A DNA stretch of 63,894 bases, filler included, from Octopus bimaculoides (lineage: Eukaryota): the NCBI RefSeq assembly GCF_001194135.2. It is 6 parts of 6 records of this genome, joined end to end, with 100 filler letters (N's around TTAATTAATTAA, not from the genome) between each part and the next. Parts side by side here need not be neighbours in the genome. Positions count along the whole stretch, not along the records: positions 1 to 11,764 come from NW_026335580.1; positions 11,865 to 32,828 come from NC_069005.1; positions 32,929 to 36,912 come from NC_068995.1; positions 37,013 to 56,837 come from NC_068989.1; positions 56,938 to 61,849 come from NC_069010.1; positions 61,950 to 63,894 come from NW_026383879.1. One strand, 5' to 3'. Position 1 is the first letter of the stretch; every line of letters starts with the position of its first letter. Of this stretch, positions 5,683 through 62,484 are shown one piece after another. The notes below the pieces were generated by a model. The model was not told where the DNA came from. It saw only the letters and a list, made by a program, of their open reading frames with translations, and ran no database searches. The translations under genes and the position numbers were made by a program.

Positions 5683-6030
5683 GTGCTAGATTCCCTTGTT
5701 CGAAAACATAAGGACACGTCGTGTCGTATAGCCAGCTGGAGACGATGTCTCCTGGGACTAAATTACAGCAACATTCGTCCCAAATCAGGACTGCCATGTT
5801 ATGTTGGCAAACAATCTTTACTACAATCTTTGCTGAATATCTCACGCCGTGAGATTTAAAAATAGTAATTTTCTTATTTACAGTATAGTCCAAAGCGTAG
5901 GTAGCGTCGTTGATCGAATAAACAGCAAGATACATTCATGAACAGGAGAATCCAGCACACATGCAATTTTATATTTGAAGAGTTAGTCATGAACCAGAAC
6001 CCACTCATCAAATAAAGTATGCCGGACGGT
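5683..6030 (+). mobile_element. Circularly permuted ~350-nt retrozyme-like monomer with degenerate HHR (copy 2)
   Basis: ggacac-gtc-gtgtc ... gccagctggagacgatgtctcctgggactaaa is homologous to 62371-62424. gtgctagattcccttgttc (5683) pairs with gaacaggagaatccagcac (5940). Decayed core TTGAAGA (5975-5981) ... GAAC (5997-6000). Confidence 0.6.
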
Positions 6031-6329
6031 GTTATACAATGAAAATAATTATTTATATCAAACTGATTCATGACAAACAGCAAAATGTTTAATAATTCTT
6101 TTGCACTTTAAATTTAAAACAAAAGTTCTTATCTTCAAATATTTTACCTCAAAATGTCTTTCTAGAACTTCATCTTGAGTTAATCATTATATATTCAACC
6201 ATCCGTTATAAATTATCATTTGTCTGAAAAAAAGCAAAGGAGCAAAACATTTGGCAGACTCTCATGAACCATTTTAATAAATAATAAATATGGATGTGTA
6301 TGCATATCTGTGAGTGTGTGTGTGTGTGT

Positions 6330-6640
6330 AGCATCACAGGGGCCAGTTGGCAGAAGGCCATCAAGTTGGTTATGGAGATAGCAGAGGTTACCTCAAGGTG
6401 GCAAGGGATCAAAATGTGCGGGCCAAATGTTCCATATCCCGTCTAGAGTAAGGACAATGTACTGCAAAAGCTTGGGATTCAAAGGTCCATAGCTATTTAA
6501 TATCTTGCCAAAAAACCTGAGAGATCTACATGGAATGGGAGAAGATGTTTTCATGAAGCACCTTGACCCTCCCAGAAGGCAAGAAACTCAAATTAGAGCA
6601 GCAGTATCAAACTCTCTTATTCACCCATAACCAACTACAT
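6330..6640 (+). mobile_element. Decayed CR1/L2-type LINE 3' end
   Basis: Translates as SRVRTMYCKSLGFKGP*LFNILPKNLRDLHG..F.KHLD...RAAVSNSLIH, the typical post-RT C-terminus. Contains stops. Confidence 0.7.
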
Positions 6641-9000
6641 AGGAATAACTATTGAAAAGGTGATGATACTGGAGGTGATCCAGTATGGCTACAGCCTTTA
6701 GGCTGGAACACAAAAGAATACAAGAATAAAAGAATATATTTTCAGGACACACACTTCTATTTGTTAGCAGTCGTAGCAGTAAAATGAATGTTTCTTTATA
6801 AAAGTTTCTTTACAATCTAAAAGATCGTAAAAGAATTCTCGATACTTACATAGATATGTGTGTACGTGTATGTGTGTGTGTTATCTTGGTATGTTATAGC
6901 AATGTGTTTGTATATGCTGATACCCCAGTACTCTTTACATTTTATTAACCACTTTCCCCCCAGTTATTTGTGAACTGTTCCTTCCACTTCAGCTCAATAT
7001 TTGTTAAAGAAGACATGCCTGATGAACACACAATACGACGTTTTCAATAAGGGATACATTTATAGAATACCGGGAGAGGGAGGGGGCGTCGAGTACGTGT
7101 TTATCTATACATGCGCGTGTATGTTTGTGTACATGTCATACCCTTTAGTTTCTTGTAGTCTTCACATTTAAGGCTATGCCAGAGTATGCGTTCCTGTCTG
7201 ATATGATTCCCACCGGGCTTCATTTTCACCTTCACAGAGAGAGAGGGGGGAGAGGAAGATAGAGAGTAAGTGTCCATTAATCCAGTGTCCAATAGACTGG
7301 CAGACCCAGCTAAATGGTAGGAGCTTATAGGGATTTTCAGTGTTTAGCTAAGCTGAGAATACCAAACGTTCCTATGAAAAGGACACTAGTTTCTCGTATG
7401 GGTAACCCACAGGTGTCAATGGGCTATATAGATTTCAAATTTTGGCACAAGGCCAGCAAGTTCAGGGGAGAGGTCTAGTCGATCACATCGATCTCAGTAC
7501 TCAACTGGTACTCATTTCATCGACCCCGAAAGGATGAAAGAAAAAGTCGATCTCGGCGGATTTTGAACTCAGAACGTAAAGACGGACGAAATGCCGCTAA
7601 ATATTTTACCCGGCGCGCCGACGATTCTACCAGCTCGCCGCCTTGCCACTGAGCCATATTGATGTAATTTTTTTGTTTGGGATACACGCACTGCATTGAC
7701 GAAGAAAATCCATTCTAAAGTTTCTTACTCCTTTGTTCAGTTTCTTTACATAGGCGCGGGGTTTTCTGTGTGATTAAGAAGTTTGCTTTGTAACCACGTA
7801 GTTTCAAGGCGGTGCTCCAGTATGACCACAGCCCATTGACTGAAACAAGTAAAAGAGAAAAAGTACCCAAACACACAATCGCGCGCACTGACACGCCCAC
7901 ATGTACGTGGAAAATAGTTTCCCTGCAAACTAAATCGATTTCTTGACGTCCCTAATTAATGCTTTTAAGCCTACCAATTATTCTTGCATTTAATTTGCAT
8001 GTGGCTATTTATGTATATATATGTATGCGCGTGTGTGTGTGTACGGCAGTGTTTATTTATGCATGCACGTATGTGTGAATGTGTGCCTGTGTGTGTGTGT
8101 GTGTGTGTGTGTGTGTGTGTGTGTGNNNNNNNNNNNNNNNNNNNNNNNNNNNNNNNNNNNNNNNNNNNNNNNNNNNNNNNNNNNNNNNNNNNNNNNNNNN
8201 NNNNNNNNNNNNNNNNNNNNNNNNNNNNNNNNNNNNNNNNNNNNNNNNNNNNNNNNNNNNNNNNNNNNNNNNNNNNNNNNNNNNNNNNNNNNNNNNNNNN
8301 NNNNNNNNNNNNNNNNNNNNNNNNNNNNNNNNNNNNNNNNNNNNNNNNNNNNNNNNNNNNNNNNNNNNNNNNNNNNNNNNNNNNNNNNNNNNNNNNNNNN
8401 NNNNNNNNNNNNNNNNNNNNNNNNNNNNNNNNNNNNNNNNNNNNNNNNNNNNNNNNNNNNNNNNNNNNNNNNNNNNNNNNNNNNNNNNNNNNNNNNNNNN
8501 NNNNNNNNNNNNNNNNNNNNNNNNNNNNNNNNNNNNNNNNNNNNNNNNNNNNNNNNNNNNNNNNNNNNNNNNNNNNNNNNNNNNNNNNNNNNNNNNNNNN
8601 NNNNNNNNNNNNNNNNNNNNNNNNNNNNNNNNNNNNNNNNNNNNNNNNNNNNNNNNNNNNNNNNNNNNNNNNNNNNNNNNNNNNNNNNNNNNNNNNNNNN
8701 NNNNNNNNNNNNNNNNNNNNNNNNNNNNNNNNNNNNNNNNNNNNNNNNNNNNNNNNNNNNNNNNNNNNNNNNNNNNNNNNNNNNNNNNNNNNNNNNNNNN
8801 NNNNNNNNNNNNNNNNNNNNNNNNNNNNNNNNNNNNNNNNNNNNNNNNNNNNNNNNNNNNNNNNNNNNNNNNNNNNNNNNNNNNNNNNNNNNNNNNNNNN
8901 NNNNNNNNNNNNNNNNNNNNNNNNNNNNNNNNNNNNNNNNNNNNNNNNNNNNNNNNNNNNNNNNNNNNNNNNNNNNNNNNNNNNNNNNNNNNNNNNTATA

Positions 9001-60574: not shown

Positions 60575-60657
60575 TTTTACTTCCGACTTACTTCTTTGTA
60601 ACCATTTTACTTCCGGAATACCGCTCACCTGTCACATCGGCTGATTGCAAGGTATTT
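60575..60657 (+). promoter_or_regulatory. Candidate housekeeping promoter and non-coding first exon
   Basis: Two ETS-type ACTTCCG motifs (60579, 60609) in CpG-containing unique sequence, followed by donor-like CAAG|gtattt at 60651/60652. Confidence 0.35.
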
Positions 60658-61949
60658 TAATTACTTTTCAACTTATTTCTGTTTTATTCTCCGACGGGGT
60701 TCGGCGATCTTTCGATACTAGTCCACCAAAACTTTCGATCGTTGCGCGCACGCATACTGATTACGTGATCGTATAGTGTGTTGATGTGTTTAAAGTTTCA
60801 GTTCGGATGGCACCTNNNNNNNNNNNNNNNNNNNNNNNNNNNNNNNNNNNNNNNNNNNNNNNNNNNNNNNNNNNNNNNNNNNNNNNNNNNNNNNNNNNNN
60901 NNNNNNNNNNNNNNNGTGTGGCTATAATAAAAAGATATCTATGTACCTATCTATCTATCTATCTACCTATCAATCCATCCATCCGTCCGTTTGTCTGTCT
61001 GCCTGTCCCTGTGAATCAACAAGCCAGACCACACCAACATTACTAGCAACAACAATAGACACCAACCATAACAAGAAATTAAGGAAGATTTCTTTTGTTT
61101 TGGTTAAAGCAATTACATTAAACTGTCGCCAGCAACAACAACAACAACAATAGTACAATATTAACAACAAGGAAGTATCTGCATGGTAATTCATCCTGCC
61201 AGAAATAGTGACCAAATCTTCCTCAAATCATACCCTACAGCCTTAGGTATGTCAATATGTAATTACATCATGCTGTCTTATGTATGTATGTATGTGTATG
61301 TATATGTGCGTGTATATGTATGAATGTGTGATTGTGTCTATGTATGCATGTACATATGCACATGTGTGTGCGCATGCATGGAAACGCCAATAAAGAAACC
61401 TCATTGCATTAACTAGATCTGCTAGAAATGTTATCCATCCTAGTCTTATGTACACACACACACACATATATATATATATCATCATCATTTAACGTCTGCT
61501 TTCCATGCCAGCATGGGTTGGACGATTTGACTGAAGACTGGTGAACCAGATGGCTACACCAGGCTCCAATCTGATCTGGCAGAGTTTCTACAGCTGGATG
61601 CCCTTCCTAACGCCAACCACTCAGAGAGTGTAGTGGGTGCTTTTACGTGCCACTGGCATGAAGGCCAGTCAGGCGGTACTGGCAACGGCCATGCTCGAAA
61701 TGGTGTATTTTACGTGCCACCCGCACAGGAGCCAGTCCAGCGGCACTGGCAACGATCTCGCTCGAATGTCTTTACACGTGCCACTGGCACAAGTGCCAGG
61801 AAGGCGACGCTGGGCACCGGTGCCATCACAATTTCTTTGTTATATTTAANNNNNNNNNNNNNNNNNNNNNNNNNNNNNNNNNNNNNNNNNNNNTTAATTA
61901 ATTAANNNNNNNNNNNNNNNNNNNNNNNNNNNNNNNNNNNNNNNNNNNN

Positions 61950-62484
61950 TACGATAATCGCCGACCTTTGATGAGAATGACAATCCCTTGGCAATATATC
62001 AGTCTTTTTCCAGTGAAGTTATTCACTGATCTCGAAAAAGTGAAAACAAGCAATGTTAAATCTCTGAACGAGGTGTTAACAGTAACTGCACGATAAAGTG
62101 AAGTATATTTGCCATTTAAATGTGGCTGACCCCTAAGGGTGGATGTTACTGTTGCTTTTAGCCCCAGGAGAACATCTCCTCCAGCTGGCTTATCGACACA
62201 TATCTGTGTCCTGTCTATTTTTGTCACTGGAAAAAGACTTATATATTGCCAAGGGATTGTCATTCTCATCGATTATCGTACGCTGAAGAAGGGAAATAAC
62301 CCTGAAACTCGGGTCCGTACGTATCGCAGATCAAGATGGGAAGGATAACTTCCCTTGGCAAAAATAGACAGGACACAGATATGTGTCGATAAGCCAGCTG
62401 GAGGAGATGTTCTCCTGGGGCTAAAAGCAACAGTAACATCCACCCTTAGGGGTCAGCCACATTTAAATGGCAAATATACTTCAC
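61950..62484. mobile_element. Retrozyme-like locus with an inverted partial monomer (61950-62223, -) abutting a direct partial monomer (62225-62484, +)
   Basis: 62098-62223 is the reverse complement of 62359-62484. 61971-62016 is the reverse complement of 62224-62269 (1 mismatch). Joining the pieces gives a unit of about 352 nt. Confidence 0.75.
62277..62321 (+). ncRNA. Type I hammerhead ribozyme motif (retrozyme-like unit, copy 3)
   Basis: Stem I cgtacg/cgtacg; CTGAAGA 62283-62289; stem II aggg-aaataa-ccct; GAAA 62304-62307; stem III AC-TCGG-GT; GUC site, predicted cleavage after 62315. Stem I extends as ttctcatc/gatgggaa and tgccaaggga/tcccttggca. Confidence 0.88.

What the first reader, a model, noticed from the sequence alone, without database searches (positions are those of the whole stretch)
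5683..62484. Three diverged copies on two scaffolds define one ~350-nt structured RNA family with covarying hairpins
Seen: 5683-6030, 9001-9360 and the reconstructed unit at 61950-62484 differ strongly in sequence yet keep the same order of elements: HHR rod; GACAC(A)-loop-(T)GTGTC; GCC..AGGA/GGAGA-loop-TCCT; GGG(G/A)CTAAA; CCC..GGG stem; TG(T/C)CA..TG(A/G)CAA; TACT(A/T)CA; ..TCTC..GAGATTT; and GATCAGTGAAT(G)AACTTCACT (shared by 9018-9038 and the reverse complement of 62011-62030). Stems are kept through different pairings (e.g. aggaag/cttcct versus aggaga/tctcct). All three units come out near 350 nt. Inference: selection acts on RNA structure, and the conserved non-HHR hairpins are candidate cis-signals for a Penelope RT or for circRNA stability. 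I do not recall a described octopus retrozyme family, but cannot check.
Basis: partly seen in the sequence, partly recalled or inferred. Interest (0 to 1): 0.92.

Follow-up and report, generated by a model that had tools for sequence, protein, structure and literature searches.

The report
Probable octopus hammerhead retrozyme family
Three scattered copies of a 350-base non-coding repeat keep the same RNA fold, and two keep an intact self-cutting hammerhead motif, although only about half their letters match; this marks a small parasitic retroelement (a retrozyme) of a kind already known from mussels, corals and salamanders, here probably in an octopus.

Summary
The three copies are homologous (50-56% identical) and close into units of 346, 350 and 352 nt. 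Copies 2 and 3 carry canonical type I hammerheads and fold far better than shuffles (z -7 to -9). Between them 18-20 pairs change on both sides against about 9 expected (P 0.002 and 0.0002). Corrections: copy 1's hammerhead core is decayed, and its last 150 nt match the others only in pairing. The GATCAGTG hairpin is not family-wide. The three copies start and end at different points of the unit; two end in (TA)n and one has an inverted 5' arm. This fits Penelope-type reverse transcription of a circular or multimeric RNA. RNA-seq reads of relatives exist (42-45 per million, on both strands), but circles, cleavage and tandem arrays are not shown. Best reading: a non-LTR retrozyme, a known class (mussel units are 350-390 nt; a 2026 preprint derives retrozymes from Penelope pLTRs). 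My searches found no cephalopod example in print; Repbase, Dfam and one key supplement could not be checked. The freshest point is the conserved 180-nt multi-hairpin domain outside the ribozyme. New member of a known kind; interest moderate.

The parts
5682..6031 (+). Copy 1: circularly permuted 346-nt monomer with a 4-nt terminal repeat (5682-5685 / 6028-6031); old and decayed
   Evidence: starts at unit position 22 and ends at 25 after one round; circular fold z about -2.5 (computed on a join one base off)
5704..5880 (+). Copy 1 multi-hairpin domain, the only part similar in sequence to copies 2 and 3
   Evidence: nhmmer E 3e-20; alignment A2
5939..5960 (+). Copy 1 rod strand that pairs with 5683-5702
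   Evidence: duplex -24.2 kcal/mol, best of 8155 background 24-mers
5975..6006 (+). Copy 1 decayed hammerhead position (core broken at several conserved places)
   Evidence: position and length match c2/c3; no motif or Rfam ribozyme match; the assignment is inference
8999..9360 (+). Copy 2: 350-nt monomer plus 12-nt terminal repeat, followed by (TA)n and preceded by TA and a gap
   Evidence: circular fold -127 kcal/mol, z -8.9 and -6.9 in two shuffle sets
9087..9155 (+). Copy 2 type I hammerhead: core 9102-9132, predicted cut after 9132 (GUC), 6-bp helix I with a 3-nt bulge, 6-nt loop 2, C-A mismatch at the base of helix II, palindromic minimal helix III
   Evidence: Rfam Hammerhead_HH9 E 8e-5, 26.1 bits, below the gathering score of 52; geometry
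9181..9360 (+). Copy 2 multi-hairpin domain (about 180 nt): GACAC stem, two-part GCC/GGA stem, three-way junction, GAGATTT stem
9016..9038 (+). GATCAGTG..TTCACT hairpin, shared with copy 3 but absent from copy 1 and from most reads
61950..62223 (-). Copy 3 inverted arm, unit positions 44-317, cut off by the scaffold edge just before a hammerhead would begin
62224..62485 (+). Copy 3 forward arm, unit positions 251-352 then 1-170, ending in (TA)n; 97% identical to the inverted arm over 140 nt
62283..62315 (+). Copy 3 type I hammerhead core, predicted cut after 62315 (GUC); 6-bp helix I with a 3-nt bulge, 4-bp helix II, 6-nt loop 2
   Evidence: motif match; no Rfam match at E up to 5
62664..62974 (+). 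Exact duplicate of 62268-62578 across a gap; probable assembly artefact, not a further copy
   Evidence: 311 of 311 identical, flank included

Best explanation
A family of non-LTR retrozymes: non-coding, non-autonomous 350-nt retroelements with a type I hammerhead. The three loci are dispersed daughter copies of different subfamilies. Proposed cycle. (1) A multimeric locus elsewhere is transcribed (inferred; none is in this window). (2) The hammerhead cuts after GUC, probably as a dimer because helix III is minimal and palindromic (motif shown in c2 and c3; cutting inferred from PMC7229834 and PMC4209133). (3) A rod of about 55 bp extending helix I holds the two ends together, and a host ligase closes a circle (rod shown by folding and covariation; ligation inferred from the RtcB results in PMC7229834). 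(4) The RT and endonuclease of an autonomous Penelope-like element nick (TA)n DNA, prime at a variable point on the circle or uncut multimer, copy about one round through the cut site, and sometimes leave an inverted 5' arm (the footprints are shown; the enzyme is inferred). (5) Only variants that keep the fold go on to make progeny, so sequence drifts to about 55% identity while the rod, the hammerhead and the multi-hairpin domain persist.
For: Fold: c2 z -6.6 (linear) and -8.9 (circular), c3 -8.0 and -7.9. Covariation on a sequence-only alignment: c2 pairs projected on c3 show 18 double changes against 9.2 expected (P 0.0018), and c3 on c2 show 20 against 9.0 (P 0.0002); consensus fold -45.4 against -14.3 +/- 3.5 for column shuffles. 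Hand-anchored hairpins: of 37 pairs, 23 invariant, 9 with a double change, 2 with a single change, 5 broken in one copy. Read variants: double changes at 9056/9177 and 9270/9289. By eye, the majority read type (loose end before 9091, 102 and 85 reads) keeps 8 of 9 changed rod pairs of the c2 fold, including doubles at 9070/9163 and 9090/9142. Template: genomic 3' ends at unit positions 25, 228 and 170 and starts at 22, 217 and 251, each copy running through the cut site. Insertion marks: (TA)n after c2 and c3 and an inverted arm in c3; inverted 5'-truncated copies and (TA)n bias are described for Penelope-like elements (PMC8557442). Abundance: 1278 contigs of one run and 541 and 534 RNA reads lie on c2, mostly 85-95% alike. 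Head-to-tail continuity in RNA: 4 and 7 reads go back 350 from 9348 to 8999. A helper type is present: a broken Penelope-type GIY-YIG endonuclease relic at 44.5-45.5 kb, itself ending in (TA)n.
Against: No tandem array with two hammerheads is in the window, and the genome is not held. The head-to-tail reads do not prove a circle: c3's inverted arm already spans the same junction as linear DNA. Reads fall equally on both strands, and no pile-up of ends is seen at the cut site (tables 2 and 6). At 42-45 reads per million they could be read-through of many dispersed copies. The position test on read variants was not significant (15 of 24 compatible, 12.2 expected, P 0.14). Double changes involving c1 were not above chance (6 against 4.5, P 0.28; 4 against 3.0, P 0.35). 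Only 42 of about 110 pairs coincide between the independent folds of c2 and c3, and 32-44 projected pairs break, partly through misalignment. The reverse strand folds about as well in c1 and c2. Only c2 has an Rfam match, and it is below the gathering score. The unit shows no convincing similarity to the 3' region of the Penelope relic in the window (sense z 0 to 1.3; one antisense z 4.2 over AT-rich gapped sequence).
Confidence: 0.78

Rival explanations
1. The units are solo pseudo-LTRs of an autonomous Penelope family, left by 5'-truncated insertions, with no life cycle of their own. The fold is selected as the element's UTR.
For: pLTRs carry type I hammerheads (PMC4209133). Inverted arms and (TA)n targets are Penelope marks (PMC8557442). 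24 of 57 Xenopus retrozyme families match known elements, nearly all Penelope-like, at their pLTRs (preprint). Where most reads lead after 9359 is known only for 30 letters.
Against: The three 3' ends differ by up to 200 nt, whereas truncated copies of one linear RNA should share a 3' end. Each copy closes on itself after about 350 nt with no ORF remnant; the longest stop-free stretch in doubled c2 is 48 codons. The hammerheads have a short helix II and a bulged helix I, unlike the long-helix-II motifs of the two Penelope-type relics in this window and the minimal forms described for pLTRs. By eye, the reads' other letters before 9091 are a diverged version of the same rod strand.
Confidence: 0.14
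2. A dispersed satellite-like repeat whose inverted repeats are kept matched by DNA-level events (template switching, conversion between arms), not by selection on RNA. The hammerhead is a relic.
For: Both strands fold about equally well in c1 and c2. c1's core is dead, yet its rod persists. Eight of nine predicted Xenopus retrozyme dimers did not cleave in vitro (preprint).
Against: The single-stranded catalytic core and its spacing are kept in c2 and c3 while helices I and II are replaced. Unpaired motifs (CTAAA, TACT.CA) are kept in 3 of 3 copies. Six of the eight retained changed pairs in the majority read type are interchanges with G-U pairs, which work on the + strand only (by eye).
Confidence: 0.05
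3. A viroid-like RNA that also replicates RNA-to-RNA, with genomic copies as occasional fossils. This would explain fast sequence drift under a fixed structure.
For: Size, rod-plus-branch fold and strong divergence between subfamilies. Reads lie on both strands. Cervera and de la Pena raise RNA-RNA replication as a possibility for mussel retrozymes.
Against: No hammerhead on the minus strand of any of the 3 units (one loose 1-mismatch match in c2 without helices), and no other ribozyme family in the hairpin domain. Equal strands are what an unstranded library gives. Many DNA copies account for the diversity.
Confidence: 0.03

Closest known systems
Metazoan non-LTR retrozymes, e.g. the 350-390-bp units of the mussel Mytilus galloprovincialis and the 330/350-bp units of axolotl (PMC7229834; parts 2-4 of 6 and passages read, supplement not readable)
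   Same: Type I hammerhead with weak helix III, unit of about 350 nt, GC 42-43%, non-coding, highly self-paired, many copies, Penelope-like elements in the same genome. A mismatch at the base of helix II also occurs in one axolotl family.
   Different: Here only dispersed permuted monomers and one inverted insertion are seen; arrays, cleavage and circles are not shown. Sequence similarity to the mussel family could not be tested. A conserved multi-hairpin domain across 50-56% identical subfamilies is not described in the passages I read.
Retrozymes as non-autonomous derivatives of Penelope-like elements (Li, Clavereau and Pollet 2026, 10.64898/2026.07.22.740005; parts 1-3 of 5 read)
   Same: Co-occurrence with Penelope-like elements; dispersed 'solo' monomers beside arrays; likely mobilised by Penelope machinery.
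   Different: No mollusc was sampled (0 occurrences of octopus, cephalop, mollus or squid). Their evidence is co-occurrence and pLTR similarity, whereas here it is insertion footprints (variable start on the unit, (TA)n, inverted arm). No matching pLTR was found here.
Pseudo-LTRs of Penelope-like elements with minimal hammerheads (PMC4209133, parts 1-2 of 4 read; PMC8557442, passages and section 15 read)
   Same: Type I hammerhead with palindromic helix III region; inverted 5'-truncated copy; microsatellite targets.
   Different: No RT or endonuclease ORF in or beside the units; variable 3' ends; short helix II with a bulged 6-bp helix I instead of a long helix II.

Membership tests
Metazoan non-LTR retrozyme | Type I hammerhead with conserved core | tested here: met
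   2 of 3 copies by motif; Rfam HH9 E 8e-5 for c2, below gathering; none for c3; decayed in c1
Metazoan non-LTR retrozyme | Unit of 150-450 nt with GC under 50% | tested here: met
   346, 350 and 352 nt; GC 0.42-0.43
Metazoan non-LTR retrozyme | No protein coding, no LTR pair | tested here: met
   Longest stop-free stretch 48 codons in doubled c2, 103 in c3, 135 in c1; terminal repeats only 4 and 12 nt. PBS and PPT were not searched for.
Metazoan non-LTR retrozyme | Highly self-paired RNA | tested here: met
   z -6.6 to -8.9 for c2 and c3; about -2.5 for c1
Metazoan non-LTR retrozyme | Head-to-tail tandem arrays with two or more hammerheads | tested here: inconclusive
   None in the window. 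The unit is permuted among copies, and 11 RNA reads cross c2's end-to-start joint, which other permuted monomers would also give. Genome not held.
Metazoan non-LTR retrozyme | Many copies in the genome | tested here: met
   1278 contigs of one run lie on c2, most under 95% alike; 3 loci in 57,620 called bases. No copy number can be given.
Metazoan non-LTR retrozyme | Expressed and accumulated as circular RNA | tested here: inconclusive
   541 of 12.9 million and 534 of 12.0 million RNA-seq records, both strands equal, no end pile-up; circles cannot be told from read-through
Metazoan non-LTR retrozyme | Self-cleavage in vitro, as monomer or dimer | not testable with these tools
   Keeping the core unpaired costs only 2.8 (c2) and 4.7 (c3) kcal/mol in the predicted circle; this is no test of activity
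Metazoan non-LTR retrozyme | Autonomous Penelope-like elements in the same genome | tested here: inconclusive
   A broken relic with a Cys linker and C-terminal GIY-YIG motifs at 44.5-45.5 kb. 16 hits at E up to 0.001; 1 of 9 scanned matches Pfam GIY-YIG below its cut-off; another carries an RT-like stretch before the same motifs (read by eye). No intact element was seen.
Solo pLTR of an autonomous Penelope element | Fixed 3' end shared by truncated copies | tested here: not met
   3' ends at unit positions 25, 228 and 170; c1's end rests on a 4-nt repeat and on pairing
Solo pLTR of an autonomous Penelope element | Same sequence flanks an RT-endonuclease ORF somewhere in the genome | not testable with these tools
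   Genome not held; no sense-strand similarity to the one relic in the window
Solo pLTR of an autonomous Penelope element | Minimal hammerhead with long helix II and short helix I | tested here: not met
   Helix II 3-4 bp with a 6-nt loop, helix I 6 bp plus bulge. Some Penelope-like elements carry canonical forms, so this lowers but does not exclude the reading.

The most novel reading that the evidence does not exclude
The 180-nt multi-hairpin domain outside the hammerhead is a dedicated, structure-encoded signal by which these circles recruit a Penelope-type reverse transcriptase (or are transcribed or protected). It has been kept while the sequence drifted by nearly half. It would be a conserved non-ribozyme domain in an animal retrozyme, where a 2020 review states that the repeats show no conserved motif pointing to their helper (PMC7761336, passage). 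With the variable entry points and the inverted arm, it would give a compact RNA template on which to test Penelope-primed reverse transcription of a circle.
Probability: 0.3. Interest if true: 0.68.

Novelty: new member of a known kind. Interest (0 to 1): 0.45.

Why it matters
It would extend retrozymes to cephalopods, if the organism is one, as an abundant, old and diversified family. More usefully, it shows in one window three footprints that the rolling-circle model predicts: different start points on the unit, copies that run through the ribozyme cut site, and Penelope-type (TA)n and inverted insertions. Subfamilies about 55% alike with a shared fold are good material for a covariance model that could name the RNA element the helper enzyme reads, which is still an open question. 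The class, its circles and its Penelope link are already in print, so the surprise for a specialist is moderate.

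Tried and rejected
Whole-genome search: no genome is held, so no large alignment and no R-scape-type test could be made. Rfam at gathering score over the window: 0 matches. Metagenome scan with the shared 20-21-nt motif: 1 locus (L001), which matches only the motif and is taken as chance. 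No RNA holder was listed as such among indexed runs; 20 rows from 8 studies hold part of c2, one under a second organism code, and only 2 of these 20 were laid. A first reading that copy 1 ends at 5880 with a hammerhead relic upstream at 5627-5650 was dropped: that stretch scores z 0.4-1.8 and does not match c1's own post-site sequence, whereas 5939-6021 pairs with c1's 5' end. The position test on read variants used 24 of the 25 listed rows at 9142-9350 (9176 left out; 62 further rows were not shown) and was not significant; it counted rod positions as broken without updating their partners. In one search helix D was mis-anchored in c3, so its count is unreliable; the arm-identity figure is out of register and was not used. 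Strand asymmetry of folding energy was not decisive. Pol III A and B boxes and an octamer were not conserved: 0 of 3 motifs in all copies. No second ribozyme was found in the hairpin domain. Penelope relic: no Pfam match for the fragment itself, no hit in the word-index search, Atlas unavailable. Earlier findings of this scan: nothing on this genome or sequence. The supplement of PMC7229834 could not be read; its figure of invertebrate retrozymes could include a cephalopod. The 2026 Octopus vulgaris annotation (PMC13282606, passages only) has 0 occurrences of ribozyme or retrozyme in its main text; its repeat library was not seen.

Full report
What is there. The window is a string of small scaffolds joined by five 100-nt linkers, rich in microsatellites. 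Three loci belong to one family. Copy 2 (8999-9360) is one 350-nt unit plus a 12-nt terminal repeat, followed by (TA)n. Copy 3 consists of an inverted arm (61950-62223, minus strand) joined to a forward arm (62224-62485) that ends in (TA)n; the arms are 97% identical over 140 nt and together give a 352-nt unit. Copy 1 (5682-6031) is a 346-nt unit with a 4-nt terminal repeat. A profile from copies 2 and 3 finds copy 1 at E 3e-20 and nothing else, and a covariance model finds no further copy. Identities are 50-56%. The repeat at 62664 is identical over 311 of 311 bases, flank included, and is probably an assembly duplicate.

The ribozyme. Copies 2 and 3 carry a type I hammerhead core with predicted cuts after 9132 and 62315. 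Both have a 6-bp helix I followed by a 3-nt bulge, a short helix II with a 6-nt loop and a minimal palindromic helix III, yet the helix sequences differ. Rfam gives nothing at gathering score. In local searches c2 matches Hammerhead_HH9 at E 8e-5 (26.1 bits, gathering 52) and c3 matches nothing. c2 has a C-A mismatch at the base of helix II and may be weakened. Copy 1 has a stretch of the right length at the right place (5975-6006), but its core is broken. Its last 150 nt have no sequence similarity to the other copies (z -1.6 to 0.2).

Is structure selected? c2 and c3 fold far below dinucleotide shuffles (z -6.6 to -8.9); c1 does so weakly (about -2.5). On a sequence-only alignment, c2 pairs projected on c3 show 18 double changes that keep pairing against 9.2 expected (P 0.0018), and the reverse projection shows 20 against 9.0 (P 0.0002). 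Comparisons with c1 keep more pairs than chance (P 0.02, 0.009) but not more double changes (P 0.28, 0.35). In seven hand-anchored hairpin stems, 23 of 37 pairs are invariant, 9 change on both sides, 2 on one side and 5 are broken in one copy (one stem mis-anchored in c3). The double changes sit mostly in the inner GGA stem and in the stem closing the three-way junction. The GACAC stem never varies and so says nothing. Reads add an independent type. Their variant table holds two double changes (9056/9177, 9270/9289), although the overall position test was not significant (15 of 24, P 0.14). Most reads leave c2's sequence before 9091 with one consensus (102 and 85 reads, agreement 0.7). Read by eye against the c2 fold, this consensus and the majority variants keep 8 of 9 changed rod pairs: two double changes and six interchanges with G-U pairs. 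These letters come from different reads and are not phased. Three genomic copies cannot replace a test on a large alignment.

What the reads show. Two RNA-seq runs of the same species label and one study gave 541 of 12.9 million and 534 of 12.0 million records on c2 at 85% likeness or more, nearly all from other family members. One contig set gave 1278 records. Four and seven reads go from the end of c2 back to its start, 350 nt earlier. This shows that the unit is continuous head to tail in RNA, but c3's inverted arm spans the same junction as linear DNA, so it does not prove a circle. Both strands are equally covered, there is no pile-up of ends at the cut site, and 42-45 reads per million could be read-through of many dispersed copies. 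Depth over 8997-9087 is 3-22 against about 80-200 elsewhere, so the GATCAGTG hairpin shared by c2 and c3 is a minority feature.

How it was copied. Counting from the cut site, the genomic copies start at 22, 217 and 251 and end at 25, 228 and 170, each passing through the cut site. A cleaved linear monomer cannot give such copies, and a linear element with a fixed 3' end would not give three different ends. A circle or an uncut multimer primed at variable points does. Two copies end in (TA)n, and one has an inverted 5' arm. Craig et al. describe inverted 5'-truncated copies and microsatellite bias for Penelope-like elements (PMC8557442; passages and section 15). The window holds a broken Penelope-type relic at about 43.8-45.8 kb on the minus strand, with a Cys linker, C-terminal GIY-YIG motifs, a long-helix-II hammerhead in an AT-rich tail and a (TA)n end. 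Its best relatives include proteins with the same motifs, one behind an RT-like stretch. By the description in PMC8557442 this layout is Neptune- or Nematis-like. It shows that a helper type existed in this genome. It shares no convincing sequence with the units, so it is not identified as the helper.

Comparison with what is known. Cervera and de la Pena (PMC7229834; parts 2-4 of 6 and passages) define metazoan non-LTR retrozymes as 150-450-bp, low-GC, non-coding repeats with type I hammerheads, expressed as circles. They include 350-390-bp mussel units and propose Penelope-like elements as helpers. Li, Clavereau and Pollet (2026 preprint; parts 1-3 of 5) link retrozymes to pLTRs and describe dispersed monomers; they sampled no mollusc. 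The family meets five testable criteria (hammerhead, size and GC, non-coding, self-pairing, many copies); arrays, circles and an intact helper are inconclusive, and cleavage cannot be tested here. It fails two marks of a solo pLTR (fixed 3' end, long-helix-II ribozyme), but the decisive test, whether the unit flanks an RT ORF elsewhere, needs the genome. Seven literature searches listed no paper describing a cephalopod retrozyme; most of their hits I saw as listings only. The supplement of PMC7229834, Repbase and Dfam could not be checked.

Verdict. The feature is real and more than chance, and selection on its RNA fold is supported. It works like a non-LTR retrozyme and most likely is one (0.78). 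It is a new member of a known kind. The part worth following is the 180-nt multi-hairpin domain kept across subfamilies about 55% alike, since a 2020 review says metazoan retrozymes show no conserved motif pointing to their helper (PMC7761336, passages). That this domain is the helper's signal is a hypothesis (0.3). Interest 0.45.

Noticed in passing
window 33059-33765 (-): A second, unrelated hammerhead element: 555-nt period with a 153-nt terminal direct repeat (95% alike), GC 0.34, intact core with long helix II and a CCGG palindrome at about 33411-33365, ending in (TA)n; circular fold z -3.6 against mononucleotide shuffles. It looks like a Penelope pLTR-type or second retrozyme family.
   Followed up: partly
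window 43795-45770 (-): Broken Penelope-type element: GIY-YIG endonuclease motifs in two frames, a 44-nt internal inverted repeat (44294-44337 / 44713-44756), an AT-rich tail with a long-helix-II hammerhead at about 44085-44010, and a (TA)n end.
   Followed up: partly
window 48021-48300 (-): Fragment of a reading frame that resembles, from recall, the C-terminal region of site-specific non-LTR elements (R4/Dong type), next to an (ATT)n tract.
   Followed up: no
window 57625-58041: Three tandem copies of a 139-bp unit, 96% alike.
   Followed up: no
window 52779-53130: Nine tandem copies of a 39-bp unit, open in one frame on the minus strand.
   Followed up: no
window 7472-7644, 45781-45957 and more than ten other places: A very common 170-nt SINE-like repeat, 70-84% alike between copies.
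   Followed up: no
window 9016-9038 and 62011-62030 (-): c2 and c3 share 20 of 21 letters of one hairpin although they are 56% alike overall and most reads lack it. This hints at recombination between subfamilies or a mosaic origin of c2.
   Followed up: partly
window 62224 (c3 inversion joint): The inversion joins unit positions 44 and 251, which lie close to each other at the base of the predicted rod, as if the fold guided the strand switch. One case only.
   Followed up: no
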